From positions 1 through 37,344 of IMG/VR virus record IMGVR_UViG_3300021371_000049: 37,344 nt of DNA. The stretch is one strand, 5' to 3'. Of the stretch, positions 1 through 37,344 are shown in pieces (positions within the stretch are counted from its first letter, which is position 1; each line of letters opens with the position of its first letter). The DNA comes from a virus. Lineage: Duplodnaviria; Caudoviricetes. The position numbers were made by a program, and so were the translations under genes. The notes under the pieces were generated by a model that was not told where the DNA came from, ran no database searches, and saw only the letters and a program-made list of their open reading frames with translations.

Positions 1-88
1 CTCTTTCAGTTGGACTTGCTGCTTTTGACCTTGACTTTGACCTTGACTTTGACTTTGACTTTGACTCTGAGCCTTGGCGAGTGTCCAT
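1..88. repeat. Left copy of terminal direct repeat or circular overlap, with 7 TTGACY hexamers (25-66)
   Basis: Identical to 37251-37344 except that the right copy has one extra TTGACT unit. Confidence 0.95.
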
Positions 89-123
89 AGTAGGGGGGGC
101 GAACCATTGTCCATAGTAGGGGG
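82..123 (+). repeat. 16-bp direct repeat TGTCCATAGTAGGGGG, two copies (82-97, 108-123)
   Basis: Read directly; period 26 nt; G-runs of 7 and 5. Confidence 0.9.
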
Positions 124-133
124 CGCAGGAAAG

Positions 134-148
134 TCTCACTCAGTGAGA
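134..148. promoter_or_regulatory. Palindromic operator-like site 1, TCTCACT-C-AGTGAGA
   Basis: Perfect 7-1-7 palindrome, repeated at 253, 980 and 36973; just upstream of a -35 box. Confidence 0.75.
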
Positions 149-159
149 GTACCTGAGAC

Positions 160-188
160 TTGACAGGCAGCCCAAAGTATGAGATAAT
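160..188 (+). promoter_or_regulatory. Host sigma70-type early promoter
   Basis: TTGACA (160-165), 17-nt spacer, extended -10 TGn-GATAAT (183-188). Confidence 0.8.
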
Positions 189-197
189 ATGTTTAAG

Positions 198-226
198 AAA
201 TGGGGAGAGTCCCTATTTATTTTTTT
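198..226 (+). terminator. Terminator- or attenuator-like hairpin in the early leader
   Basis: AAATGGGGA-GAG-TCCCTATTT stem followed by A and T7. Confidence 0.4.
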
Positions 227-235
227 CTTATTATA

Positions 236-248
236 TATCAATAACTTA
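236..248 (+). promoter_or_regulatory. IHF consensus site
   Basis: TATCAATAACTTA matches WATCAANNNNTTR exactly, with an upstream T-tract. Confidence 0.55.
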
Positions 249-252
249 CTAC

Positions 253-267
253 TCTCACTCAGTGAGA
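253..267. promoter_or_regulatory. Palindromic operator-like site 2
   Basis: TCTCACTCAGTGAGA immediately before the RBS (AGAGGA) of the first gene. Confidence 0.75.
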
Positions 268-285
268 CTTACAGAGGATTTCAAA

Positions 286-978
286 ATGAAATTACTAGAT
301 CGTAGTGGTGCTAACACTAAGTTAGCCAAGACCAATGATGGTTCTGAGTATCTTGTTGCAGGGTTATCACTCATGCCTGATGACATACTCTGTGCTTACC
401 GTAAACGTGCAGATTGTGGGGAGACTTGTCTTGTCTTTACTGGGATGGCTAGGGTATTCCCTAAGATCAACCAAGCAAGGCAGCGTAAAACTGACTGGTA
501 TCATTCAGATCAGGAAGGGTTCCTTGAGCAACTCCGCAAAGAACTGCGGTTACACCAAAAGAATTGTGAGAAGAAAGGTATCAAGCCTGCTGTAAGGCTT
601 AACGTGCTCAGCGATATTGCGTGGGAGAAGCATGGCATACCTCAAGAGTTCCCTGACATATTCTTCTATGACTACACGAAGAATGCGTTTCGTCTGGGGA
701 AAACTCCTGACAACTACAATCTCATCTTCTCATACAGTGGTGCTCCTGAGTACCAACAGTTTGTGGCTAGAGCATGGGAGACTGACTCTCCGATTGCTGT
801 GGTCTTTAAGAATCGAGTGCCTGACACCTTCATGGGTCGTGAGGTAGTTGATGGAGACAAGTCCGACCTTGACAACGTGGTAGCAGGTCGTGTTATAATT
901 GGTCTTGTCGAGAAGGTGTCGGGTAATGAGTCTCCAGTGTTCATGGTTGATCCCGACCTAATCGCAGTAGCAGCTTAA
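286..978 (+). CDS. GP88-family phage protein of unknown function
   Basis: Start moved to ATG 286 after AGAGGA; Cys cluster C-x7-C-x3-C; motifs VRLNVLSD and FYDYTK typical of GP88-like proteins. Confidence 0.7.
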   Translation: MKLLDRSGANTKLAKTNDGSEYLVAGLSLMPDDILCAYRKRADCGETCLVFTGMARVFPKINQARQRKTDWYHSDQEGFLEQLRKELRLHQKNCEKKGIKPAVRLNVLSDIAWEKHGIPQEFPDIFFYDYTKNAFRLGKTPDNYNLIFSYSGAPEYQQFVARAWETDSPIAVVFKNRVPDTFMGREVVDGDKSDLDNVVAGRVIIGLVEKVSGNESPVFMVDPDLIAVAA

Positions 979-979
979 C

Positions 980-994
980 TCTCACTGAGTGAGA
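980..994. promoter_or_regulatory. Palindromic operator-like site 3
   Basis: TCTCACTGAGTGAGA; 978-998 is the exact reverse complement of 130-150. Confidence 0.75.
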
Positions 995-1022
995 CTTTTA
1001 ACTTAACTTGAGGAATGTAATT

Positions 1023-1409
1023 ATGTTGTTATCTTTAATTGGTAAGTCACCTAAGGTGTCTAAAGTATTTGTTCGTACACTTGCAGCAACCCTACCTCTC
1101 TTGGGGTACAAGGTTAAACCTGATACCAAGAAGGTTCGTGTCAAGAATCTTGATGGTACTTGGAAGGTGGGTGCAAATGGTAAGGGTGTGTATCGCAGAG
1201 TCGGTAAGCTAGACAATCGGTTCTTTGCTGTACCTCGTTGGGGTCATGGGGCTGCTCTGATCTTGACAGCTCGTAAGGTTGTTAAGCGTGATCGTGAGGA
1301 CTTTGAGGGTGAGACATACTTGTCAAAGCATCGTGGTTATCTTACAATAGCTGTCGAGCACAGCAAGGGTCGCTTGTTGTGGGATGTACAGAACCGAGAC
1401 ATCCAGTAA
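1023..1409 (+). CDS. Basic early hypothetical protein
   Basis: ATG 1023 after GAGGA; in frame with ORF 1008-1409; K/R-rich. Confidence 0.75.
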   Translation: MLLSLIGKSPKVSKVFVRTLAATLPLLGYKVKPDTKKVRVKNLDGTWKVGANGKGVYRRVGKLDNRFFAVPRWGHGAALILTARKVVKRDREDFEGETYLSKHRGYLTIAVEHSKGRLLWDVQNRDIQ

Positions 1410-1416
1410 TCAATAC

Positions 1417-1445
1417 GAGGGTAGGTTATCCTGCCCTCACTTTTT
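1417..1445 (+). terminator. Rho-independent terminator candidate (early)
   Basis: GAGGGTAGG-TTAT-CCTGCCCTC stem followed by ACTTTTT. Confidence 0.65.
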
Positions 1446-1478
1446 CTAAACTAGGAGAATACATTAGGAGTATAGACT

Positions 1479-1628
1479 ATGAGATATTGTTATATAGTTT
1501 GGGTTGGCGATATAGACGAGCACTACGACAATTATCAAGAGGCTTTTTATGCTCTTGAAGATTGGGTAGAAAAAGGTCATGATGACGTAATCTTAGAAAT
1601 AATTCCAGAAAACAGGAGTGAGCTATGA
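1479..1628 (+). CDS. Small acidic early protein (49 aa; not in ORF track)
   Basis: AGGAG RBS; MRYCYIVWVGDIDEHYDNYQEAFYALEDWVEKGHDDVILE...; ATGA overlap with next gene. Confidence 0.75.
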   Translation: MRYCYIVWVGDIDEHYDNYQEAFYALEDWVEKGHDDVILEIIPENRSEL

Positions 1629-1828
1629 GTATATTAGATCAAGATACAAAAACTATCAGTGTTGGCGACATCTTCAATGATATGTGGATTGAAGAGATAT
1701 GGATAGGTTGTCACAGTGGTAGATGTATGGCGTACTACCACACTGTCTCGAAGTCTGGTACTAAATTTGTCTTTACCCACGATGAGGTTATGGCTTTACT
1801 TAAAGTTAAAGTGGAGGAAGTAGCATGA
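1625..1828 (+). CDS. Small early hypothetical protein
   Basis: AGGAG RBS; ATGA-coupled at both ends. Confidence 0.75.
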   Translation: MSILDQDTKTISVGDIFNDMWIEEIWIGCHSGRCMAYYHTVSKSGTKFVFTHDEVMALLKVKVEEVA

Positions 1829-2058
1829 TAGTAGGTCATCACGATACAGTTGCAATAACTGAGAAAGACTTTGAGGAGTATCACCTACACTGGCACGCTA
1901 GTGATGGTACTTTCGGTGACGAGTTCATCTGTCGCATCTACGGTCATGTAGACAAGGCTGTCAAGGCTGCTCAGTTAATAGCTAACAAGCAGTGTGAATA
2001 TGTATCATATCCAGTGGTTATGAAATCATGGTCAGAATGGGAGAATGAGAATGACTAA
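1825..2058 (+). CDS. Small early hypothetical protein
   Basis: GGAGG RBS; ATGA overlap. Confidence 0.75.
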   Translation: MIVGHHDTVAITEKDFEEYHLHWHASDGTFGDEFICRIYGHVDKAVKAAQLIANKQCEYVSYPVVMKSWSEWENEND

Positions 2059-2251
2059 TTATGATAAGCTAGACGCAGTTAAGAACATTCGCTACGAGTC
2101 CTTTGCAGGGGGTGAGCCTTACATCATGACTCGTGAGGAAGCTGAAGATCACTTTGAGTGTCTCATCGAGGCACTACAGGGGTACTACCCTGATGGTGCG
2201 GTGTTTGCAATGGACGAGAATAATCATGACATCTTCATCGAATGGGACTAA
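2045..2251 (+). CDS. Small acidic early hypothetical protein (start may be 2051)
   Basis: Overlaps the previous stop; GGAG upstream. Confidence 0.7.
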   Translation: MRMTNYDKLDAVKNIRYESFAGGEPYIMTREEAEDHFECLIEALQGYYPDGAVFAMDENNHDIFIEWD

Positions 2252-2399
2252 GGTAGAAAAGATAGTCATACCTGATGCTGCGATAAGGGAGTTCAATGAG
2301 AAGTATGGTAAGTATTTACCAAAACCTCAGGAGACTATCCCTTACGTAGATGAGGATGCAATGTACCTACAATATGTAATGGGGGTTACTGATGAGTGA
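2226..2399 (+). CDS. Small early hypothetical protein
   Basis: 3' part of ORF 2133-2399; ATG 2226 chosen to limit overlap. Confidence 0.55.
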   Translation: MTSSSNGTKVEKIVIPDAAIREFNEKYGKYLPKPQETIPYVDEDAMYLQYVMGVTDE

Positions 2400-2697
2400 A
2401 GCAACACATGGCGGCAAAGGTAGCAAGCGTAGACCTACTGATGCTGACAAGTACAACCAAAACTATGACCGTATCTTTTGTAAGAAAGGTACTCAACCAA
2501 AGACACAGGAGAAAACTAAAGTGGATCATTTAGATTACAACGAAGCATCAGCATGGAGACCTGCTTGTGGTGGCACTGAGCGACCGTTCGAGTGGGGTGG
2601 TAAAGAGTATTTGTATATGTGGAATCACGAGACAGGTGAACACGCATATTACAATGCTACCGATGATGTCTTTGAACCTAACGTGGAGTTTAACTAA
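2392..2697 (+). CDS. Early hypothetical protein, possibly two fused modules
   Basis: N-terminal HGGKGSKRRP module and C-terminal WRPACGGTE module; internal AGGAG and in-frame GTG at 2521. Confidence 0.7.
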   Translation: MSEATHGGKGSKRRPTDADKYNQNYDRIFCKKGTQPKTQEKTKVDHLDYNEASAWRPACGGTERPFEWGGKEYLYMWNHETGEHAYYNATDDVFEPNVEFN

Positions 2698-2873
2698 TGT
2701 ATCTAGTATCTTGGAGTGACACTAACGGCTACCATGACATGACCTTTAACGATTACCAAGAAGCAATAGAGTTCTTGGCTGATCTTGAGGATAACTGTAC
2801 TGGTAGTTCCTTTACTACTCTTAATGACGCTGACGATGAGCGTGAGGAGCACTGGTACGATGCCAACTCTTGA
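2697..2873 (+). CDS. Small highly acidic protein (58 aa; not in ORF track)
   Basis: TAATG coupling and GGAG RBS; MYLVSWSDTNGYHDMTFNDYQEAIEFLADLED...; 15 D/E versus 1 R and no K. Confidence 0.7.
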   Translation: MYLVSWSDTNGYHDMTFNDYQEAIEFLADLEDNCTGSSFTTLNDADDEREEHWYDANS

Positions 2874-3633
2874 TGACCAGATTGAACTTGAGTATCTCAT
2901 GGTTCAGTCAGGTATCAAGCGTTACCAAAAGCAGATGAGTGATCTCGCTGCTAGTGGGCATGGTGCAAAGACTCTGCATGGTAGGGCTATCGTAGCAGGG
3001 GTAGCTCAGGCAGTAGCGTTAGCCATTGATGAGTTCATACAGTCGAACCTTAAGATGAAGGTCAAGACTTTATTAAAGCAGAGTGACCCAAGACAGTTAG
3101 CCTACTTGTCTTTGATAAGTGTGGTTGATAGGATTGCAGGTCAGACTCCTTTGATGGGTGCAGCCTTGTTCGTAGGTACACAGGTGGAGACTCAGCAACG
3201 ACTTGAGAAGTGGATACAGGCTGATAAACAGACTGCTAACTACATGATCAAGCAGGCTAACAAGAAATCTGACAAGGGCTTTGACCACAAGCGTCATGGT
3301 CTGAACCATAAGATGAAGTCGGATGGTGTTGATATACCTTACTGGTCTCGTACAGATCGGATAGCTGTAGGTATGAAGCTCATCTCTCTTATCGTAGAGA
3401 ACTCAGGGATAGCTAAGATAGTTAAGAAGGGTGATGGTAGGAAAACTACTTCGTATGTTGTGGCTACTGAGTCTACACTTCAGTGGGTCAAGACGTTCAA
3501 CGAAACGAAGGAGAAGAACTTACCTCGCTATGCTCCCTGCATTATCGAGCCTAAGGATTGGGATAGCTTTTGGGGTGGTGGCTATTACAGTGACCACATA
3601 AATCAGAAACCTTTTGTCAAGGTGCATACATGA
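2860..3633 (+). CDS. T7-family RNA polymerase, N-terminal fragment (257 aa)
   Basis: GAGGAG RBS before ATG 2860; ends PCIIEPKDW...GGGYY...FVKVHT, aligning by eye to T7 RNAP PCVVPPKPW...GGGYW...LVRTHS (~270-301). Confidence 0.9.
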   Translation: MPTLDDQIELEYLMVQSGIKRYQKQMSDLAASGHGAKTLHGRAIVAGVAQAVALAIDEFIQSNLKMKVKTLLKQSDPRQLAYLSLISVVDRIAGQTPLMGAALFVGTQVETQQRLEKWIQADKQTANYMIKQANKKSDKGFDHKRHGLNHKMKSDGVDIPYWSRTDRIAVGMKLISLIVENSGIAKIVKKGDGRKTTSYVVATESTLQWVKTFNETKEKNLPRYAPCIIEPKDWDSFWGGGYYSDHINQKPFVKVHT

Positions 3634-5300
3634 ACGAAGAAACTCAGAAATATATAGATGAGTTCGAGCAGTATGATTTATCCATGGAGTATGGGTGCGT
3701 CAATGCTCTGCAAAAAACTCCTTGGAGAATAAACACTTACGTCCTAGAGACTCTTAGAGCTGTCTGGGATAGCGGTGAGGAATGGAAAGGTTTACCTGCC
3801 AAGTATGACAGGGCGTTGCCTGTGTACCCTTTTGGGGACACTAAGATACAGGACGTTGAGGACAAGGCAGCAGTCAAGAAGTTTAAGAGAGACCGTACTA
3901 AGATACATACCCTGAACAACAGGGAAATGTCTAAGCGGATACAGGTGGAGCGTACACTTCAGATAGCTGAGGAGTATGCCGAGAGGGAAAAGATGTGGTA
4001 TGTCTGGCAGTGTGACTTCAGGGGTCGTAAGTACCCTGTAGAATCCTTCCTGTCTCCACAGAATGCTGACTACAGCAAAGCTCTACTAGAGTTTGCGTCT
4101 CCTGCCACTATAGTTACTACCGAGGATGCCAAGTGGTTGGCTATTCATGGTGCTAATCTATTCGGGGTGGATAAGGTTAGCTTAGAAGATCGTGAGATGT
4201 GGGCGTACTTCAATGCAGATAAGGCTATTGATGTATGCAACAACCCTCTCGGCAACTCGTGGTGGCAAGAGGCTGACAAGCCTTGGCAAGCACTAGCATG
4301 GTGCAAAGAGTGGGCAGAGTACAACGTCGCTAGAGCTAATGGGGAGACGTATGAGACGTACTTACCTTGCGCTAGTGATGGTACGTGTAACGGCTTACAA
4401 CACCTCTCAGCGATGCTCAGGGACTCTGAAGGTGGGCGTAGTGTAAACCTAACGCCTAGCCCAGTACCTCAGGACATCTACAGGGATGTTGCGGAGAAAA
4501 CTACAGAACTTTTACAGGTCGAGGCTGACAATGGGGAGATACTTGCTCAACAATTACTCACCCTTGGGATTGACCGTAAGATTTGTAAGAGACCTGTAAT
4601 GATTGTGCCTTACAGTGGTACGCTTCATGCGTGTAAGTCATACATCAAGGAAGCCTTGGAAGAAAAGCTAGAGGATATGGATTACAATCCCTTTGGGGAC
4701 AGTGACTTGTTCCGACCGTCTCAGTACTTAGCCAAGTATGTGTGGCAGGCTATCTCTGAGGTTATCGTAGCTGCCTTTGAGGTCATGGATTACATCAAGG
4801 ACATCTCAAGGTTGTATGCCAAGGCAGGTAAGCAGTTCAGTTGGGTCACACCTACCAACCTACTGGTCAGGCAAACGTACAAGGAGAAGAAAGGGCGTAG
4901 AGTTCATACGCATATCTCTGGTAGTATGGTTACTGTCCATGTTAAGGATGGTATACCCGACACAATCAACGTAAGGAAGGCAGTATCTAGTGCCAGTCCT
5001 AACTTTGTACATTCCTTAGACGCTTCGGCTCTAACCATGACTGTACATGAGGCACTCAAGGACGGTATCAAGGACTTTGCGATGGTACATGACAGTTTTG
5101 GGACACACTCTCCCAATATGCCGTTGTTCAACCTACGCATAAGAGAATCGTTCGCAAAGCTTTACACTGAGAACGATGTGTTGTACAATCTCTACCTGAG
5201 AGCTAGTGAGGAGTTGCCTGATGCTGATGTACCTAAGCCACCTGAGAAGGGAGACTTGGACATAAATGAGGTGCTCGTAAGTCCTTACTTTTTCTCATAA
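3630..5300 (+). CDS. T7-family RNA polymerase, catalytic C-terminal fragment (556 aa)
   Basis: DFRGR, motif A SDGTCNGLQH, motif B RKICKRPVMIVPY, PNFVHSLDA, motif C VHDSFGT, C-terminal YFFS. Confidence 0.95.
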   Translation: MNEETQKYIDEFEQYDLSMEYGCVNALQKTPWRINTYVLETLRAVWDSGEEWKGLPAKYDRALPVYPFGDTKIQDVEDKAAVKKFKRDRTKIHTLNNREMSKRIQVERTLQIAEEYAEREKMWYVWQCDFRGRKYPVESFLSPQNADYSKALLEFASPATIVTTEDAKWLAIHGANLFGVDKVSLEDREMWAYFNADKAIDVCNNPLGNSWWQEADKPWQALAWCKEWAEYNVARANGETYETYLPCASDGTCNGLQHLSAMLRDSEGGRSVNLTPSPVPQDIYRDVAEKTTELLQVEADNGEILAQQLLTLGIDRKICKRPVMIVPYSGTLHACKSYIKEALEEKLEDMDYNPFGDSDLFRPSQYLAKYVWQAISEVIVAAFEVMDYIKDISRLYAKAGKQFSWVTPTNLLVRQTYKEKKGRRVHTHISGSMVTVHVKDGIPDTINVRKAVSSASPNFVHSLDASALTMTVHEALKDGIKDFAMVHDSFGTHSPNMPLFNLRIRESFAKLYTENDVLYNLYLRASEELPDADVPKPPEKGDLDINEVLVSPYFFS

Positions 5301-5301
5301 T

Positions 5302-5320
5302 TTTATTATCGACACTATAG
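5302..5320 (+). promoter_or_regulatory. Phage RNAP promoter 1 (replication genes)
   Basis: TTTATTATCGACACTATAG; SP6-like GACACTATAG end; 16-nt core repeated at 13747 and 35880. Confidence 0.85.
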
Positions 5321-5345
5321 CCCGTAAACAACAGAGGAAATATCT

Positions 5346-5990
5346 ATGGCTAACAAAATGATGACACTTAAGGGTAACGCAATGTGGGCAAAGGTCTTTG
5401 AGCCTGACACAAAGTTTGACCCTAATGGTATCTACACCATCAACCTTCAGTTACCTGAGGAAGAAGCAGCACAGATGTGTGAGCAGTTAGAACAGCTTGC
5501 TCAAGAGCGTTTCAATCAAGAGGTCAAGCGTAAGCCTGCCTTGAAGAACACTCTGTCCATGTCTACACCTGTCAACCCTGTCTATGATCGTGACACTGGT
5601 GACGCTACAGGTGATGTTGAGTTCAAGTTCAAGCTCAAGGCTAAGATCAACACCAAGGCAGGTGACGTATACGACCAGAAGGTTGCTGTATTCGATGCCA
5701 AGCGTAAGCCTATTGAAGGTGGTGTCAATATCGGTAATGGTTCTACTGTCAAGGTAGCTTTTGAACCTATCCCATACATGATGTCTGCTACTAAGACAGT
5801 CGGTGTGTCGTTACGTCTCAAGGCTGTTCAGGTTATTGATCTTGTAGAGTACTCAAACTCTTCTAGTATCTTTGACGAGGAAGACGGTTACGAAGCTACT
5901 ACTGCTGAAGTAACACCTATCCGTAAGGATGAGACACCTTTCGATGATGATGGTCTACAGGGAGCTTTAGCTGCTGATGGCGACTTCTAG
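5346..5990 (+). CDS. Single-stranded DNA-binding protein (T7 gp2.5-like)
   Basis: EPDTKF, GVSLRLKAVQVIDLVE, acidic tail ending in DF. Confidence 0.92.
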   Translation: MANKMMTLKGNAMWAKVFEPDTKFDPNGIYTINLQLPEEEAAQMCEQLEQLAQERFNQEVKRKPALKNTLSMSTPVNPVYDRDTGDATGDVEFKFKLKAKINTKAGDVYDQKVAVFDAKRKPIEGGVNIGNGSTVKVAFEPIPYMMSATKTVGVSLRLKAVQVIDLVEYSNSSSIFDEEDGYEATTAEVTPIRKDETPFDDDGLQGALAADGDF

Positions 5991-11259: not shown

Positions 11260-11609
11260 CAGCTACTTACGATTACATTGCAGGTATGTACGAAGCCTTT
11301 GACTACTATCAAGGTAAGGCTAATGAGACAGCTATCTTCCCTGAAGACCAAGCCCTAGAGTATTTATCTCTAGGTCTCTTGTCGGAAGCAGGAGAGGTGG
11401 CAGGAAAAATTAAGAAAAAAATTAGAGACGGAGAACCATTTGATTTCCGAGAAGCTCTTGAAGCTGAGCTAGGTGACGTACTTTGGTATATTGCTTTGTT
11501 GTCTGACAGGTTAGGTCTGAACTTGAGTGACGTAGCTTTCAACAACATTATTAAATTACAAAACAGAAAAGTTAAAGGCACATTAAGAGGGTCAGGTGAT
11601 AACCGATGA
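11256..11609 (+). CDS. MazG-like nucleotide pyrophosphohydrolase
   Basis: SEAGEV...ELGDVLWY...GSGDNR. Confidence 0.88.
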   Translation: MTATYDYIAGMYEAFDYYQGKANETAIFPEDQALEYLSLGLLSEAGEVAGKIKKKIRDGEPFDFREALEAELGDVLWYIALLSDRLGLNLSDVAFNNIIKLQNRKVKGTLRGSGDNR

Positions 11610-13516
11610 TGGATTCATATCAGCAGTACATACACAAGTCACGCTACGCACGATGGCGTGAAGACGACAATCGTCGTGAGACTTGGGACGAGACAGTAAG
11701 ACGTTACACAGACTTCTGGGTAGGACGTGGACAGATTGACTACGATACCTCAGAGATGCTATACAAAGCCATATACAACCTAGAAGTAATGCCCTCTATG
11801 CGTTGCTTAATGACAGCAGGTGAAGCACTTGATCGTGATAACATGGCTGGCTTTAACTGCTCATACATTGCAGTAGATCATATCAGAGTGTTCGATGAGA
11901 TTCTTTACGTACTCATGTGTGGTACAGGTGTAGGCTTCTCAGTTGAACGTCAATCAGTAAGTAAACTACCAGAGGTAGCGGAGGAGTTCCATGAAACAGA
12001 CACTACAATCGTTGTTAAAGACAGTAAAATTGGTTGGGCAAAAGCTTTCCGAGAGTTGGTTAGCCTTTTGTATTCGGGTCAAGTACCTTCTTGGGACGTG
12101 TCGAAACTTCGTGGTAAAGGTGAAAGACTCAAAACATTTGGAGGAAGGTCGTCTGGAGCTGATCCTCTTGTTGCTCTGTTCGATTTCACTGTTGCCACTT
12201 TTAAAGGCGCTTCTGGACGCAAGCTAACGAGTATAGAATGTCATGATATTGTTTGTAAAATTGCAGAGATTGTTGTGGTGGGTGGTGTCCGTAGGTCTGC
12301 GCTTATTAGTTTGTCTAATCTTAGTGATGATCGGATGCGTCATGCTAAGTCAGGTAATTGGTGGGAGACTGATACGCAACGTGCGCTCGCTAATAACTCG
12401 GCAGTCTACGACGACAGACCAGACTTCGAGACGTTCTTAGAAGAGTGGACAGCTCTATACAAATCTAAGGCAGGTGAGCGTGGTATCTTCTCTCGTAAGG
12501 CAGCTAAGAAACAATCAGCTCGTCATGGACGTAGAGATATTGAGCATGACTTTGGTACTAACCCCTGCTCTGAGATTATCCTACGGTCAGCTCAGGTTTG
12601 TAATTTGTCGGAAATCGTTATTCGTAGTACCGATACATATGAAGATTTAAAACGTAAGGTAGAGATTGCTACTATCTTAGGAACACTACAGTCTTCTCTA
12701 ACAGACTTCCGCTATGTGCGTAACATCTGGAAGAAGAACACAGCAGAAGAGTGTTTGTTAGGTGTAAGCATGACAGGTATTATGGATCACCCTGTTATGT
12801 CAGGCAAGGTGAGTTCAGGTACATGGTTCGATCATCCTAATCAACCTATCCTACCTGAGATACTAGAGCGACTCAAAGCTGTAGCTGTAGAGACTAACAA
12901 GAAGTGGGCAGAAAACTTAGGGCTTAACCAGTCTACTGCTATCACTGCTGTTAAACCAAGTGGTACTGTATCACAGCTAGTAGATAGTGCTTCAGGTATC
13001 CATGCACGATTCTCTGACCAGTACATACGGACAGTACGCTCTGATGGTAAAGACCCCATCTCAGCCTTCCTGAAAGACGCAGGAGTGCCTTGGGAGAAGG
13101 ACGTAATGAATGAGGATAACTATGTGTTCTCGTTCCCCATAAAGGCTCCTGATGGCTCTACGAGTGTTGACTCACTTAACGTACAGGAACAGCTAGACTT
13201 GTGGGAAATCTATCAGAACCATTGGTGTGAGCACAAACCAAGTGTGACTATTTATTACTCAGATGAGGAGTTCCTAGCAGCAGGTCAATGGCTGTGGGAT
13301 CGACTGGATAGTTGTTCAGGGATTAGCTTCCTGCCTCGTACAGATCATGTGTATAAGCAAGCACCTTACACAGCTATTACAAAAGAAGAGTATGATGAAG
13401 CCTTATCTAAGATGCCTGAAACTATCAACTGGGATGACTTAGGTAAGTTCGAGAAAGAAGATACTACTACAGGAACGCAGGAGTTAGCTTGCGTAGCGGG
13501 GAATTGTGAGATATGA
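11606..13516 (+). CDS. nrdJ: Ribonucleotide reductase, probably class II (B12-dependent RTPR type)
   Basis: RRETW, GFNC, GGVRRSA, GTNPCSE, VKPSGT, C-terminal CxxxxC; no beta-subunit gene seen. Confidence 0.88.
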   Translation: MMDSYQQYIHKSRYARWREDDNRRETWDETVRRYTDFWVGRGQIDYDTSEMLYKAIYNLEVMPSMRCLMTAGEALDRDNMAGFNCSYIAVDHIRVFDEILYVLMCGTGVGFSVERQSVSKLPEVAEEFHETDTTIVVKDSKIGWAKAFRELVSLLYSGQVPSWDVSKLRGKGERLKTFGGRSSGADPLVALFDFTVATFKGASGRKLTSIECHDIVCKIAEIVVVGGVRRSALISLSNLSDDRMRHAKSGNWWETDTQRALANNSAVYDDRPDFETFLEEWTALYKSKAGERGIFSRKAAKKQSARHGRRDIEHDFGTNPCSEIILRSAQVCNLSEIVIRSTDTYEDLKRKVEIATILGTLQSSLTDFRYVRNIWKKNTAEECLLGVSMTGIMDHPVMSGKVSSGTWFDHPNQPILPEILERLKAVAVETNKKWAENLGLNQSTAITAVKPSGTVSQLVDSASGIHARFSDQYIRTVRSDGKDPISAFLKDAGVPWEKDVMNEDNYVFSFPIKAPDGSTSVDSLNVQEQLDLWEIYQNHWCEHKPSVTIYYSDEEFLAAGQWLWDRLDSCSGISFLPRTDHVYKQAPYTAITKEEYDEALSKMPETINWDDLGKFEKEDTTTGTQELACVAGNCEI

Positions 13517-13647: not shown

Positions 13648-13765
13648 GAACAAAGCGATAGTGGTATTGGAGGTGGTAACCTGCCTCCATATCATCGCTA
13701 ACGTATGGTTACATTTACCTTTTAACTTGTTGTTTTATAACGGTAATTTATTATCGACACTATAG
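13640..13765 (+). CDS. Possible small hydrophobic peptide (41 aa)
   Basis: MVRNKAIVVLEVVTCLHIIANVWLH...; stop lies inside promoter 2; weak RBS. Confidence 0.35.
   Translation: MVRNKAIVVLEVVTCLHIIANVWLHLPFNLLFYNGNLLSTL
13747..13765 (+). promoter_or_regulatory. Phage RNAP promoter 2 (structural genes)
   Basis: TTTATTATCGACACTATAG, identical to 5302-5320. Confidence 0.85.
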
Positions 13766-18312: not shown

Positions 18313-18936
18313 ATGACTAGCCCAACAACCAAACTAGAAGCTGTTAATGTGATGCTCTCTACACTAGGGGAAGCTCCAGTAAATAGCTTAAACTCTGGTC
18401 TTATTGATGCTGAAATGGCTGAACAGATTTTAGATAATGTAAACAGAGAAGTACAAGCCCAAGGTTGGAATTTTAATACTGAAACTGATTATACAATAGC
18501 AGTCAACACCGCAGGTGAGATTGAATTACCTAGTAACTTTGTTAGGGTTGATCTAGCTAAATCAGAAACAAAATTCAGAAGCTCTAAGAATGAGTACGTC
18601 CAACGAGGCAACAGAATTTACGATACCATAAAACATACTTATGCTATCGACAAAGCTCTAAAGCTAGACGCAGTAGTCTTGCTAGACTTTGAACTAATAC
18701 CCGAAGTAGCTCGAAGATACATAGCTATCAGAGCATCTCGAATCTTCCAAGAACGTGTATTAGGCAGTACTAATATGTCTGCACAGAACAGAGCAGATGA
18801 GCAACAGGCTCAACTAGCCTTGATAGATATGGAAGGTGATAGTGGTGACTATAACATATTTGATGATTATGGCACTTACAGTGTAATAGACAGAACAAGC
18901 ACTTCAAAGGTGATTACTAATGGCACTAGCTTCTAA
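18313..18936 (+). CDS. Tail tubular protein A (gp11-like)
   Basis: LEAVNVMLSTLGEAPV, GWNFNTE, RYIAIRASRIFQ. Confidence 0.93.
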   Translation: MTSPTTKLEAVNVMLSTLGEAPVNSLNSGLIDAEMAEQILDNVNREVQAQGWNFNTETDYTIAVNTAGEIELPSNFVRVDLAKSETKFRSSKNEYVQRGNRIYDTIKHTYAIDKALKLDAVVLLDFELIPEVARRYIAIRASRIFQERVLGSTNMSAQNRADEQQAQLALIDMEGDSGDYNIFDDYGTYSVIDRTSTSKVITNGTSF

Positions 18937-21900
18937 GAGCGTCCCTAACTTAATTAATGGGGTTACGCAACAACCACCAGAGTTACGGTTAAACAACCAA
19001 TTAGAAGTCCAAGAGAATGGTTATCCAGATGTGGTTGAAGGGTTGCGTAAAAGACCCCCAAGTTTATTTTTAAACTACTTACTAAAGTGTTCTAGCAGTT
19101 GGACAGCAGGTGTAAGCACCAGTGATTTAACTACATCAAACACTGAAAGACTTACGTCTTCAGAGTTAGCCAATGCTTTAGTACATTCTTACAAAAGAGA
19201 TAGTGATGAAACATACACTGTCTTAGTAGTCCCTCAGGAATCTGGAGGAGTAGTTCAAGACCCCTTGCTTTTAGTTTATGATGAGGAAGGTAACTTAAGA
19301 TACCAAGCAGGTAAGTCAAGTTGGTTAGCTGACGGTTCTTCTATAACGTATCAAGACGGTGATGTAACGCTGTATGGTAACTCTGATTCTACAACTTACT
19401 TAAAAAATGCAACACCTGACAATAGTATAAAAGCTACCTCTGTAGCTGACGCTACTTTCTTAGTGAATACAAATACTATTGTAAAATTAAACCCTGATAG
19501 AATCCCTAGCAAAACGGGTAACTCTTGTTTAGTACATTTTAAAACAGTAAACTACAACAAAGACTACAGATTAACTTTTGAGTCTTTAGAAAATAGCCAA
19601 AGACTTGTAGCACAAGCTTCTACAGACGACCCTAGCAGTAATACACATTATAACGAACTCAAAGTATCTACAGCAGCCACAGCTTTGCGAGATGATGTAA
19701 TATCTGAAAGCTCTCAAGCAGGAGCTACTGTTTATTTTAGCGGTAGAAGCGACAAACAAACTACAGAAGAAAAAAAAGATAACACTTGGTCTGATAGTGC
19801 ATTAATACCCTACCTTAGATTTTCAAAAACACAGGGCGTTATAGACGATGGTAGTCCTGCTACAGGAACTTTCGCTCCTTCAGGACAACTAACGGTTATT
19901 GTAGGCGATAACTCAATGGTTTATTCCCCAACTGAGCAATCAGCTTGGGATACTTTCAACAGATTACCTAAAAACGGTTGGGTATATTCTGACGGTACTG
20001 ACTCTACTCCATCTGGAATAGTGTTCCCAAGGTCTATCGCAAGTCTTAGGTATTCTGATAGTTGGTACGATCACGACAGTGATGAGTATTACGACACAAG
20101 ATGGGTAACCGTTCCTCCTATCTCTACGGTTGACCAAAACCCTGCTAGTGCTAGTTTAGTAGTCACACCGACTATTAGTAGAGGCGAAGGTTATTTTGTA
20201 GTTACAAGTCCTTCTGATGGAACTTTTGGTGATTTTAACGTTTTTGTTTCAGATGATAATGGAGGTAACGATTTAGTTGCTATAAAAGGCACTGCTAAAT
20301 CTTTTGCAGACCTTCCTAACCAATGTGTAGAAGACTATAAATTGACTGTTACAGGAGATGGTAGTAAAGGAGAAGATGACTACCATGTTATCTTTAAAGG
20401 TGCAGGAGGCTCAGGTATATGGAGAGAAAGTGTAGAAGGTGGTTTACAAAACGACTTTGATAACACCACCATGCCTCATCAACTTAGACAAGACCCTAAA
20501 ATACTAGGAAGTCTTCGGTTTTCTTTTGAACCTTTGTCTTTTACTTCTCGTTTAGTAGGGGACGAACTCACCAATCCTGCTCCTAGTTTCGTAGAGAATA
20601 CTATTAGTGATATTTTCTTTTATAGAAACCGCTTAGCTTTTTTATCTGAGGATAATGTAATCTTTAGTGAAAACGGAGACTACTTTAATTTTTATAGAAC
20701 TACCGTTAGGACACTTTTAGATAGCGACCCTATTGATATAGCTATAGCAAGTACTGACGTGTCTACACTTAAAGCTGCCACAGCAGTGCAAGATTACTTG
20801 TTATTGTTCTCAGAGCAGAACCAGTTTACTTTATCCTCTGCTCAGTTACTCACACCTACAGACGTTAAGGCTGACTTATCTACTCAATACGAGTGTGATT
20901 TAACAGCACCCCCTGTAACAGCAGGTAACAGTGTGTTTTTTGCTACAGCAAACCAGTATTACTCAGGTATTCGAGAGTATGTAACAAACCCTAATACTGA
21001 AATAAACGAAGCACCTTTAGTTACTAACCATGTTCCTGAATACATACAAGGAACTATAACTAAAATAGCAGCATCTACCAATAAGAATATGCTTTTATGT
21101 TTGAACAGTGTAGATAAAAAAGTTGTTTATGTGTACAAATGGTATGACAGCGATAGCCAAAGACTCCAAAGTGCTTGGTCAAAATGGATATTTGATAAGG
21201 ACGTGTTAAACATCTCCTTCAATAACTCTAGGATGTACATAACATTTGGTGATGGTTGTTTTGAAGAACTAGATTTAGCTTCTAATGAGCAGTCTATTAC
21301 TTTTGCACAAACAGCTACTTTTCTAGGTACTTCAGACCTTTCCTTAGGTGCAGGTACGTATGCACAATCAGACATAATGAGCTATTCATACAATAACGAA
21401 TTGTTACTCGCAGGTTTTGTTTTAAGGTTTGAAGACCTTTTCAACACGCCTGTAATAGAGTTTACTGCTCTACCAACTCTTCTTAATGCAGGGTTTAACG
21501 GATTAACATTTAACGGTGAAACGTATCTTACTTCGGCTGCTACAGTAATTGAAAACTCAGACGGAAGTAAGAAGTTTACTTGGGTTCCTACAGGTTCTCA
21601 AGTTGATGCCGTACAAGCCATTGTAGATGCAGATGCTTCTACTAGATTTGAGTTGCCAGTTCTTCTTGAATCCGAAGTTAGTTACACAGGCACAGCTTAT
21701 GATGTTTACTTAGATCACCGTAGAAAGTTAAACAGTACTAACTCTGCTACATTCAGCCTTAGCGATATACCCTCATCTGACTTAACAGCATCTACTAAAT
21801 TTGTAGATCACTTAGGTGTGGTAATCGCTACAGGGACAAGCAGTGCTGAGCTAGATAAAGTAGTTAATTATATAAATGGTAAGACTCATACTGAGAATGG

Positions 21901-22303
21901 GTCTCTTCTTTATAACTACCTTTATGCGGGAGAGCCTTACACGTTCAAAGCTACATTATCAGAGCCAGTGTTTGACTACGGTAAGAAAGACGCTTCTAAG
22001 TTAGCTAGAATGCAAATACGTAGTTTTAACGTATCCTTTAGCGATACAGCATTCTTTAACTTCAAAGTAAAAGCTAAAGATAGAGACGAAGTAGTTTCGA
22101 CTTACACAGCTAAACACTTTGGTGATTCTGAAAATACTTTAGGCTTCCTGCCCAACATTCAGTATGGTGATAAGAAGTTTAGTGTTTTATCGAACGCTAC
22201 TAATGTAAAACTAACCCTTGAAAATGATTCACACTTACCCTCAACATTCCAAAGTGGTGAGTATGAAGTCATGTTTCATTACAGAAACCCAGTAAGGTTA
22301 TAA
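18920..22303 (+). CDS. Tail tubular protein B / nozzle (gp12-like), enlarged
   Basis: PNLINGVTQQP, GLRKRP, TMPHQL, PSFV, NRLAFLS, DSDPID, QSAWSKW. Confidence 0.92.
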   Translation: MALASKSVPNLINGVTQQPPELRLNNQLEVQENGYPDVVEGLRKRPPSLFLNYLLKCSSSWTAGVSTSDLTTSNTERLTSSELANALVHSYKRDSDETYTVLVVPQESGGVVQDPLLLVYDEEGNLRYQAGKSSWLADGSSITYQDGDVTLYGNSDSTTYLKNATPDNSIKATSVADATFLVNTNTIVKLNPDRIPSKTGNSCLVHFKTVNYNKDYRLTFESLENSQRLVAQASTDDPSSNTHYNELKVSTAATALRDDVISESSQAGATVYFSGRSDKQTTEEKKDNTWSDSALIPYLRFSKTQGVIDDGSPATGTFAPSGQLTVIVGDNSMVYSPTEQSAWDTFNRLPKNGWVYSDGTDSTPSGIVFPRSIASLRYSDSWYDHDSDEYYDTRWVTVPPISTVDQNPASASLVVTPTISRGEGYFVVTSPSDGTFGDFNVFVSDDNGGNDLVAIKGTAKSFADLPNQCVEDYKLTVTGDGSKGEDDYHVIFKGAGGSGIWRESVEGGLQNDFDNTTMPHQLRQDPKILGSLRFSFEPLSFTSRLVGDELTNPAPSFVENTISDIFFYRNRLAFLSEDNVIFSENGDYFNFYRTTVRTLLDSDPIDIAIASTDVSTLKAATAVQDYLLLFSEQNQFTLSSAQLLTPTDVKADLSTQYECDLTAPPVTAGNSVFFATANQYYSGIREYVTNPNTEINEAPLVTNHVPEYIQGTITKIAASTNKNMLLCLNSVDKKVVYVYKWYDSDSQRLQSAWSKWIFDKDVLNISFNNSRMYITFGDGCFEELDLASNEQSITFAQTATFLGTSDLSLGAGTYAQSDIMSYSYNNELLLAGFVLRFEDLFNTPVIEFTALPTLLNAGFNGLTFNGETYLTSAATVIENSDGSKKFTWVPTGSQVDAVQAIVDADASTRFELPVLLESEVSYTGTAYDVYLDHRRKLNSTNSATFSLSDIPSSDLTASTKFVDHLGVVIATGTSSAELDKVVNYINGKTHTENGSLLYNYLYAGEPYTFKATLSEPVFDYGKKDASKLARMQIRSFNVSFSDTAFFNFKVKAKDRDEVVSTYTAKHFGDSENTLGFLPNIQYGDKKFSVLSNATNVKLTLENDSHLPSTFQSGEYEVMFHYRNPVRL

Positions 22304-35865: not shown

Positions 35866-35880
35866 TTTCTTTGGTATAAT
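35851..35880 (+). promoter_or_regulatory. Consensus sigma70 promoter overlapping phage promoter 3
   Basis: TTGACA (35851-35856), 18 nt, TGn-TATAAT (35875-35880). Confidence 0.6.
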
Positions 35881-35898
35881 TTATTATCGACACTAAGG
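35880..35898 (+). promoter_or_regulatory. Phage RNAP promoter 3 (phiOR-like position)
   Basis: TTTATTATCGACACTAAGG, same 16-nt core. Confidence 0.8.
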
Positions 35899-36306: not shown

Positions 36307-36888
36307 TTACGCTGCTTTTTCTAACAGGCTGCCAAGGTATCGTGTGACTGCCGACACCTGAGAGGCATCGAGTTTCATAAGCAAGTCAATCGCTTGTTGG
36401 TGTGCAGGGCTGATCTGCTCCTCTTCAATCTCCTTAAGCTCTGCCATTACTTCGGCTGTCGCTGCTGCCGATTTCTCTGCGCCAAGGGCTGCGGCGACGT
36501 CGTCATTGGCTGCGCTTGCTGTCTCCTTCTCTGCTTTTATCAGCGCACGCATTTGAGTGATGCCGTCTTTTATCGCTTGATCTCTGTCTGCTTGGTCAAT
36601 CTTAAGCTGACAAAATTGACGGAATGTTGACAGGATATTGGGCGGAGTTGATACCTTATAGCCTTGGCGGTAAATACCATTAAGGCTCGGATACTTCCAA
36701 CCCTCTTGAGCGTTGATGGCATCAGTTAATTTTTTATTTAAAATGTTGAACTGATCCAAATTGCCCGCACTCAAAATATGCTTATATGACGCTATCATCA
36801 ATTGGCTGATTTCTTCCGTCACTTTTGTCTCGATTAATGCAGCGTCAATAGTGTTTTGTAATTGCTTTTTAAATGATAATGCTTTCAT
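36307..36888 (-). CDS. Only leftward gene; helical hypothetical protein (193 aa)
   Basis: AGGA RBS, upstream promoter and downstream terminator. Confidence 0.85.
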   Translation of the reverse strand: MKALSFKKQLQNTIDAALIETKVTEEISQLMIASYKHILSAGNLDQFNILNKKLTDAINAQEGWKYPSLNGIYRQGYKVSTPPNILSTFRQFCQLKIDQADRDQAIKDGITQMRALIKAEKETASAANDDVAAALGAEKSAAATAEVMAELKEIEEEQISPAHQQAIDLLMKLDASQVSAVTRYLGSLLEKAA

Positions 36889-36941: not shown

Positions 36942-36971
36942 ATTATAACGCCAAACAATAAAGAATTGCAA
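36942..36971 (-). promoter_or_regulatory. Leftward sigma70 promoter
   Basis: TTGCAA (36971-36966), 18 nt, TATAAT (36947-36942). Confidence 0.7.
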
Positions 36972-36995
36972 CTCTCACTCAGTGAGACCTATAAT
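36966..36995 (+). promoter_or_regulatory. Rightward sigma70 promoter with operator-like site 4 (36973-36987) in its spacer
   Basis: TTGCAA, 18 nt containing TCTCACTCAGTGAGA, TATAAT. Confidence 0.7.
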
Positions 36996-37250: not shown

Positions 37251-37344
37251 CTCTTTCAGTTGGACTTGCTGCTTTTGACCTTGACTTTGACCTTGACTTT
37301 GACTTTGACTTTGACTTTGACTCTGAGCCTTGGCGAGTGTCCAT
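37251..37344. repeat. Right copy of terminal repeat, with 8 TTGACY hexamers (37275-37322)
   Basis: Matches 1-88 plus one extra TTGACT. Confidence 0.95.

What the first reader, a model, noticed from the sequence alone, without database searches (positions are those of the whole stretch)
2860..5300. Naturally split (two-subunit) T7-like RNA polymerase
Seen: the RNAP is two ORFs joined by an ATGA overlap (3630-3633), with an SD-like AAGGTG at 3619-3624. The same coupling is used at many other gene junctions here. All catalytic motifs are intact, no sequence appears missing at the junction, and cognate promoters exist, so this does not look like decay. By-eye alignment puts the break after H300/S301 of T7 RNAP, separating the promoter-binding N-terminal domain from the polymerase domain. 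Established: Autographiviridae RNAPs are normally single chains, and N4 RNAPII is a heterodimer split further downstream, after the DxxGR motif. From memory (verify), engineered bisection of T7 RNAP found a tolerated seam near 301-302. Inference: an independent heterodimeric RNAP whose N-terminal subunit could be regulated or released. Caveat: one missing A (CAT ACA ATG) would fuse the frames, so a sequencing error or -1 frameshift is possible.
Basis: partly seen in the sequence, partly recalled or inferred. Interest (0 to 1): 0.88.

Follow-up and report, generated by a model that had tools for sequence, protein, structure and literature searches.

The report
Natural two-gene T7-type RNA polymerase
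This uncultured marine phage and all of its sampled close relatives encode the normally one-piece T7-type RNA polymerase as two separate, conserved genes, cut where engineers found the T7 enzyme tolerates a cut; the two proteins likely assemble into one working enzyme, and a similar split at a nearby site was already noted in phages of SAR11 bacteria.

Summary
The split is real. The RNAP is two ORFs: 2860-3633 (257 aa, T7 residues ~30-300) and 3630-5300 (556 aa, ~301-883), with nothing missing. No fused form was found inside its clade: 72 of 72 informative viral loci and 78 of 80 metagenome loci are split; the sister clade is fused (23 of 23). The junction occurs in all three frame relations, and five relatives carry whole genes between the halves. 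This excludes sequencing error and makes a frameshift very unlikely. Both genes are under purifying selection, and the second has its own ribosome-binding signal. The seam equals the engineered T7 seam 301-302 (Segall-Shapiro 2014 supplement). A predicted complex scores 0.85 against 0.00 for controls, but likeness to solved T7 RNAP can explain that. Best reading: a stable heterodimer working like T7 RNAP, not a released subunit. The kind is not new: fragmented RNAPs were reported in pelagiphage group III (Chen 2019), cut about 9 residues earlier and probably independently, and N4 RNAPII is a heterodimer. This scan found the same kind on other DNA before. Activity is untested.

The parts
2844..2849 (+). 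Shine-Dalgarno-like GAGGAG of the N-terminal-subunit gene
   Evidence: sequence; duplex energy -8.5 kcal/mol
2860..3633 (+). Gene for the N-terminal subunit, 257 aa, 28.9 kDa, pI 9.5: promoter-binding domain, subdomain H, beta-hairpin, C-linker; T7 RNAP ~30-300
   Evidence: Pfam RPOL_N, PHROG 414 positions 4-266, T7 RNAP by sequence and by fold; mass and pI
3514..3630 (+). C-terminal arm of the N subunit (residues 219-257), with the hinge prolines P222 and P226 (T7 P266, P270) and the last beta-strand; predicted main clamp on the catalytic subunit
   Evidence: P222, P226 invariant in 34 of 34; numbering; low confidence when folded alone, core of the predicted interface
3619..3624 (+). SD-like AAGGTG inside the end of the first gene, serving the second gene
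   Evidence: weak here (-3.9), clade mean -5.9 against -2.2 at internal ATGs and -1.2 at the same place in fused sisters
3630..3633 (+). ATGA stop/start overlap: the seam, at T7 H300/S301-K302
3630..5300 (+). Gene for the catalytic subunit, 556 aa, 63.7 kDa, pI 5.3: thumb, palm, fingers, specificity loop; T7 RNAP ~301-883
   Evidence: Pfam RNA_pol, PHROG 414 positions 268-816, T7 RNAP; catalytic D250 (4377-4379) and D488 (5091-5093)
4860..4943 (+). Specificity-loop region (C residues 411-438), predicted to lie on the N subunit
   Evidence: T7 748-758 = residues 426-435; contacts in the predicted complex
5302..5320 (+). Predicted phage promoter directly after the RNAP, before the ssDNA-binding protein gene
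   Evidence: repeat family D10; a look-alike motif follows the RNAP stop in relatives and T7's own promoter stands at the same place
13747..13765 (+). Second exact copy of the predicted promoter, before the structural genes
35880..35898 (+). Third copy of the predicted promoter (2 mismatches), after the terminase, near the right end

Best explanation
The phage encodes its T7-type RNA polymerase as two separate genes, and the two proteins (29 and 64 kDa) likely assemble into a stable heterodimer that would transcribe from the phage's own predicted promoters as one-chain T7 RNAP does. Shown: two ORFs that together cover the whole enzyme, the same seam across the whole clade, purifying selection on both, a ribosome-binding signal before the second, and relatives in which other genes lie between the halves. 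Inferred: host RNA polymerase transcribes both genes early; the ribosome stops at TGA 3633 and restarts at ATG 3630; the N subunit's last ~40 residues wrap onto the catalytic subunit and its final beta-strand packs beside the strand before the DxxGR motif. The moving hinge (T7 P266) lies inside the N subunit, so the promoter-binding domain could still rotate and refold while the pair stays clamped. The fission probably happened once at the base of this clade, at a surface turn where a cut costs little, independently of the pelagiphage split.
For: Split in 72 of 72 informative loci of 80, 78 of 80 in a scan seeded from the N protein only (one is the window's own record, one ends at the seam without the second gene, one is cut short), and 32 of 44 new loci of a further subclade (11 uninformative, 1 fused and outside the clade). 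The best 120 homologues of the C protein are all 429-558 aa although up to 973 aa was allowed. 56 distinct junction sequences with gaps of -4 or -1, +1, +2, +3 (in-frame stop) and +19; +8 also seen. Whole ORFs between the halves in L297 (C5 DNA methylase), L304 (2 ORFs), L305 (5 ORFs), L310 and L332 (1 ORF); L297, L304 and L310 sit inside the clade; no Rfam intron match in 4 of these loci tested. dN/dS medians 0.14 (N) and 0.12 (C) over 232 non-independent pairs; window against L002 0.07 and 0.05. SD energy mean -5.9 at 56 junctions against -2.2 at 627 internal ATGs and -1.2 in 14 fused sisters; AGG is 45 of 75 Arg codons in the last five codons against 520 of 2289 elsewhere. Clade is one branch at 100/100 in separate N and C trees. 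Predicted complex 0.85, best of 3 controls 0.00; the mark was reached by 116 of 157 solved complexes and 2 of 215 mismatched pairs; runs agree in at least 95% of contacts, partner pLDDT at least 66. T7 RNAP cut at 301 or 302 is active in E. coli (PMC4299498 supplement).
Against: No protein, RNA or activity data. The complex score may come from likeness to solved T7 RNAP. The window's own SD is weak. Independent origin is not settled: the test of one shared origin with the pelagiphage split gave p 0.092, 0.287 and 0.009 (after I added fused sisters and dropped 18 rows, long-branch ones among them). The promoters are predictions from repeats and position.
Confidence: 0.8

Rival explanations
1. 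Two proteins are made, but the N subunit is a loosely bound, regulated factor: released after initiation, made in excess to repress promoters, or exchanged between polymerases.
For: The first gene has a stronger SD than the second in this window (-8.5 against -3.9). Genes can be uncoupled by insertions. No T7 gp3.5-type lysozyme, T7's RNAP inhibitor, among 48 proteins annotated. A sister subclade has a reversed promoter copy on the first gene's start.
Against: In T7 the N-terminal domain refolds into the RNA channel of the elongation complex (PMC3961267 passages), so it is needed after initiation. The hinge and clamp arm are in the N protein. The specificity loop is in the C protein. Split pelagiphage RNAPs keep a lysozyme, so the split does not track lysozyme loss. 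The reversed promoter is absent from this window.
Confidence: 0.13
2. A programmed -1 frameshift or other recoding makes one ~92 kDa chain as the working enzyme.
For: Most junctions have the second ORF in the -1 frame, with 8-26 open codons before its ATG.
Against: Other members have +1, +2, in-frame stop, +8 or +19 gaps and inserted genes. A slippery X XXY YYZ heptamer occurs in 1 of 43 distinct -1 junctions, not in the window's. An SD is selected at the second start.
Confidence: 0.04
3. Sequencing or assembly error, or a decayed gene.
For: The window alone is one base from a fused frame; no raw reads could be inspected.
Against: Same junction in contigs of 4 of 4 runs from 4 studies and in relatives down to ~50% identity; purifying selection on both genes; intact catalytic residues.
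Confidence: 0.01
4. The insertions or the junction are spliced out (self-splicing intron) to give a fused message.
For: Some relatives have 0.2-1 kb between the halves.
Against: The window has no intervening sequence; inserts are ordinary coupled ORFs of different kinds; no Rfam intron family at gathering score in 5 loci scanned; each half has its own stop or start.
Confidence: 0.02

Closest known systems
T7 RNA polymerase and the one-chain RNAPs of Autographiviridae (PF14700 + PF00940; PHROG 414)
   Same: Same domains in the same order, catalytic residues, hinge prolines, genome position before the ssDNA-binding protein gene, promoter-like repeat after the gene.
   Different: Two genes; lacks about the first 30 T7 residues; no gp3.5-type lysozyme found in this genome. 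Best cultured match to the C protein is only 41% identical.
Fragmented RNAP of pelagiphage/fonsiphage HTVC019Pvirus group III (HTVC025P, HTVC041P, Gjalp, Eyrgjafa, S30-C28; also Chosvirus KM23-C739); Chen et al., bioRxiv 10.1101/672428
   Same: Natural two-gene T7-like RNAP cut between the N-terminal and catalytic parts; HTVC025P also has two genes between the halves.
   Different: Seam at about T7 292/293, so the strand T7 294-299 belongs to the catalytic chain, and the N chain mostly has an extra tail. Separate branch in three trees, with fused RNAPs as the window clade's sister in the two C trees. Integrase and lysozyme beside the gene. The paper notes the fragmentation in three sentences and a legend; no mechanism or activity in the passages I saw.
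Phage N4 RNA polymerase II (RNAP1 + RNAP2; PDB 6DT7) and LUZ7 RNAPII
   Same: Natural heterodimer derived from the T7-type family (PMC7145618 passages).
   Different: Seam about 160 residues further down, after DxxGR (6dt7_A ends at profile position 162, 6dt7_B starts at 168; weak E 0.03 and 0.008). Needs an ssDNA-binding cofactor. Schitoviridae context with a giant virion RNAP; the largest ORF here is 1176 aa.
Engineered split T7 RNAP, seam 301-302 (Segall-Shapiro et al. 2014, PMC4299498)
   Same: Same cut position; one of five seams where co-expressed halves stay active.
   Different: Laboratory construct with no natural counterpart named in the passages I saw; the seams used for tools were 67, 179 and 601.

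Membership tests
T7-type RNAP of Autographiviridae | RPOL_N and RNA_pol domains | tested here: met
   one domain in each ORF, both above Pfam cut-off
T7-type RNAP of Autographiviridae | Catalytic residues of motifs A, B, C and DxxGR | tested here: met
   T7 G640 reads S throughout the clade
T7-type RNAP of Autographiviridae | Single polypeptide | tested here: not met
   two ORFs in the window and in all informative clade members
T7-type RNAP of Autographiviridae | T7-like gene order (RNAP, SSB, endonuclease, primase/helicase, DNA polymerase, exonuclease, portal, capsid, tail, terminase) | tested here: met
   PHROG annotation of 48 ORFs
T7-type RNAP of Autographiviridae | Transcription from cognate phage promoters without cofactors | not testable with these tools
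   three promoter-like repeats at T7-like positions; activity needs an assay
N4 RNAPII (Schitoviridae) | Two genes for one T7-type enzyme | tested here: met
N4 RNAPII (Schitoviridae) | Seam after the DxxGR motif | tested here: not met
   DFRGR is at residues 129-133 of the second ORF; N4 seam maps to 162/168 of it (PHROG 2051 starts at 168)
N4 RNAPII (Schitoviridae) | Genome with giant virion RNAP | tested here: not met
   37 kb, largest ORF 1176 aa, an internal virion protein; record rated 87% complete
N4 RNAPII (Schitoviridae) | Dependence on an ssDNA-binding cofactor | not testable with these tools
   needs biochemistry
Pelagiphage group III fragmented RNAP | Two genes, N-terminal part and catalytic part | tested here: met
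Pelagiphage group III fragmented RNAP | Seam before the strand T7 294-299 | tested here: not met
   here the strand ends the N protein
Pelagiphage group III fragmented RNAP | Common descent of the split (one clade) | tested here: inconclusive
   separate in 3 of 3 best trees; one clade rejected in 1 of 3 AU tests (p 0.092, 0.287, 0.009)
Programmed -1 ribosomal frameshift | Slippery heptamer and fixed frame relation | tested here: not met
   1 of 43 junctions with X XXY YYZ; all three frame relations and inserted genes occur

The most novel reading that the evidence does not exclude
The N subunit is a separately dosed regulatory subunit. Made from its own stronger ribosome-binding site, it could titrate, repress or be exchanged between polymerases, giving these phages a control over late transcription that T7 gets from its lysozyme. 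Repeated fission near T7 290-301 in unrelated lineages would then be selected for regulation, not only tolerated.
Probability: 0.13. Interest if true: 0.8.

Novelty: new variant of a known kind. Interest (0 to 1): 0.5.

Why it matters
It shows that the model 'single-subunit' polymerase has been stably split in a large, widespread clade of marine phages at the seam that a blind engineering screen also found, probably a second time in the same family. It gives a naturally evolved two-part T7-type RNAP with a predicted promoter, ready to test as a two-input expression switch without added dimerisation tags, and lets one ask whether the initiation-to-elongation refolding works across two chains. 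It also warns annotators: these genes look like frameshift errors and full-length RNAP filters will miss the clade. The kind itself (split T7-type RNAP) is already known from N4 and noted in pelagiphages, which limits the surprise.

Tried and rejected
No RNA holder listed for the stretch, so expression could not be looked at; only contigs, no raw reads. Search for longer proteins matching the N protein found none at E 1e-10, weak evidence. Host: the scan of bacterial genomes gave 1 locus at 30% identity, fused; one clade protein is labelled Porticoccaceae bacterium in nr, a metagenome bin label that I do not take as a host. Sigma-70 and terminator scan of 1-5400: not above chance for promoters (7 against 9.5), none at the junction. 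Script errors caught: L312 was called fused but is split; some start choices of -10 or TTG are better read as the ATG 6 or 3 bases on; the gaps printed for L297 and L310 used upstream starts. L042, L078 and L142 have extra breaks inside the C gene, single cases that I did not follow and left out of the trees. Trees used 51, 47 and 48 representatives (85% clustering; 18 rows dropped), LG+G4 without the mixture model. Literature: 10 searches found no paper describing this clade's split or any biochemistry of a split Autographiviridae RNAP; subscription journals and bioRxiv supplements were not searchable, and the N4 RNAPII structure paper was not held.

Full report
1. The observation. The window is a whole virus record of 37,344 bases (classed linear, 87% complete; a 70-base repeat stands at both ends) with a T7-like gene order and no integrase or gp3.5-type lysozyme among 48 ORFs annotated. 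The RNA polymerase is in two ORFs, 2860-3633 (257 aa) and 3630-5300 (556 aa), joined by ATGA. The first matches Pfam RPOL_N and T7 RNAP 35-299, the second Pfam RNA_pol and T7 RNAP from 303. On a profile numbered by T7, H256 of the first is T7 H300 and residues 4-7 of the second are T7 300-303; all catalytic residues checked are present. Nothing is missing at the seam.

2. Not an error. Only contigs could be laid: in 4 of 4 runs from 4 studies a contig bridges the junction with no base added or lost (X1 may be the window's source). Of 80 viral loci found with the C protein, 72 hold both parts and all 72 are split at the same place; 8 lack the N part. One of the six search patterns was the C start itself, so I repeated the search from the N protein alone: of 80 metagenome loci 78 are split, 0 fused, 1 stops at the seam without the second gene, 1 is cut short (one is the window's own record, and some contigs recur between collections). 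A scan from a more distant member gave 44 new loci: 32 split, 11 uninformative, 1 fused at 42% identity and outside the clade. The best 120 protein homologues of the C protein (53-95% identity) are all 558 aa or shorter, though 973 was allowed. The sister clade is fused in 23 of 23 informative loci of 24.

3. Two proteins, not a recoded one. Among 56 distinct junction sequences the gap from stop to start is -4 or -1 (41), +1 (6), +2 (1), +3 with an in-frame stop (7) or +19 (1); +8 also occurs. Five loci with the same seam carry whole ORFs between the halves: a C5 DNA methylase in L297, 2 ORFs in L304, 5 in L305, 1 in L310 and L332. L297, L304 and L310 were placed in the tree and lie inside the clade. 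No intron family was found in the 4 of these loci scanned. A slippery heptamer is present in 1 of 43 distinct -1 junctions. The second gene has its own ribosome-binding signal: mean duplex energy with a recalled anti-SD motif -5.9 kcal/mol against -2.2 at 627 internal ATGs and -1.2 at the same place in 14 fused sisters; the Arg codon near the N stop is biased to AGG (45 of 75 against 520 of 2289). The window's own signal is weak (-3.9). Both genes are under purifying selection: median dN/dS 0.14 and 0.12 over 232 non-independent pairs, 0.07 and 0.05 for the window against L002. A promoter-like 19-mer stands directly after the RNAP, before the structural genes and near the right end, and relatives have their own version after the RNAP stop; a loose 14-mer test was not above chance.

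4. How it likely works. Folded alone, the N protein matches T7 RNAP best and its residues 212-257 have low confidence. In the predicted complex these residues form the core of the interface, on C residues 21-32 and 121-132, and the specificity-loop region 411-438 lies on the N protein. Score 0.85, best of 3 controls 0.00; the mark was reached by 116 of 157 solved complexes and 2 of 215 mismatched pairs; runs agree in at least 95% of contacts, partner pLDDT at least 66. Halves of a split gene can pass by likeness to solved T7 RNAP, so this supports but does not show binding. The chains have opposite predicted charge (pI 9.5 and 5.3). In T7 the N-terminal domain rotates about the 267-268 bond near P266, subdomain H becomes part of the RNA channel in elongation, and residues 300-883 are treated as the fixed C-terminal domain (PMC3961267, passages). 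Here P222 and P226 (T7 P266, P270) are invariant in 34 of 34 N proteins, so the cut is about 35 residues past the hinge. I infer that the N subunit stays clamped by its arm while its promoter-binding domain moves, and that it is not released.

5. What is known. Chen et al. (bioRxiv 10.1101/672428, passages) wrote that the RNA polymerase genes of all HTVC019Pvirus group III genomes except HTVC011P are fragmented into two parts and that the break is not recent. I confirmed two-CDS RNAPs in Gjalp, HTVC025P (two genes between the halves), HTVC041P, S30-C28 and KM23-C739. Their seam is at about T7 292/293, before the strand 294-299 that ends the N protein in the window's clade. In trees of the C part the window's clade is one branch (100/100) whose sister is fused (100/99 and 100/98); in the N tree it is also one branch, but deeper order is unresolved. 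A single origin with the pelagiphage split was rejected in 1 of 3 AU tests (p 0.092, 0.287, 0.009; the last on a set I changed after seeing the first). With the different seam, I put independent fission at about 75%. N4-type RNAPII is a proven heterodimer that needs an ssDNA-binding cofactor (PMC7145618, passages); its seam maps about 160 residues downstream (weak matches). A 2025 survey of marine Autographiviridae (PMC12361551, passages) has no occurrence of 'split' or 'fragment'. Other papers searched by passage without a mention of this split: 10.1101/410191, PMC8163748, PMC11617373, PMC8472413, PMC9915841. Ten literature searches found no description of this clade's split or any biochemistry on a split Autographiviridae RNAP; subscription journals and bioRxiv supplements could not be seen. 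Earlier notes of this scan describe the same kind on other DNA; I found the pelagiphage paper before reading them, and tested their reversed-promoter idea (true for a sister subclade, not for this window).

6. Verdict. Observation confirmed. A natural two-gene T7-type RNAP, fixed in a large uncultured marine clade (holders in 12 studies of marine, seawater or estuary samples; host unknown), most likely a stable heterodimer. It works like T7 RNAP; it is not an N4 RNAPII, and probably not a descendant of the pelagiphage split. New variant of a known kind; interest 0.5. The regulatory-subunit reading is not excluded (0.13) and would deserve 0.8.

Noticed in passing
L086:2632-2763 (HTVC011P, KC465900): The one 'fused' RNAP of pelagiphage group III is one base shorter at the seam than split HTVC041P, keeps the second gene's start (MHYNL...) in another frame and lacks that strand in its annotated protein: either a recent re-fusion or an error in the deposited sequence.
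   Followed up: partly
L072, L111, L126, L127, L131, L144, start of the N gene: A reversed copy of the phage's own predicted promoter (2-3 mismatches of 18) overlaps the first gene's start in this sister subclade; not in the window. Could be negative feedback on the RNAP.
   Followed up: partly
L297:270-1208; L304:2193-2497; L305:1525-2504; L310:1892-2074; L083:2717-3117: The seam acts as an insertion site for small coupled genes, a C5 DNA methylase among them.
   Followed up: partly
L027:590-640 (same junction in L202): A 19-base gap between the two genes that looks like an imperfect duplication of the junction.
   Followed up: partly
L304:1144-1229, L305:477-562, L310:806-891: A tRNA gene lies just before the N gene in this subclade, as in temperate pelagiphages; integrase not checked.
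   Followed up: no
window 246-271, 973-998, 36966-36991: Three copies of a 26-base repeat with a palindromic core, flanking the first early gene (Pfam GP88) and near the right end: possible operator.
   Followed up: no
window 1-70 and 37251-37320: Terminal repeat made largely of tandem 6-base units, with a different number of units at the two ends.
   Followed up: no
window 36307-36888, minus strand: The only long ORF (193 aa) on the minus strand outside other genes; no PHROG match, weak Pfam PE-PPE match below cut-off.
   Followed up: partly
window 11606-13516 and 18920-22303: Ribonucleotide reductase (636 aa) and an unusually long tail tube B protein (1127 aa against a 793-position profile).
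   Followed up: no
L042, L078, L142: Extra breaks inside the catalytic gene in single contigs; L042 holds ambiguous bases, so likely assembly errors.
   Followed up: no
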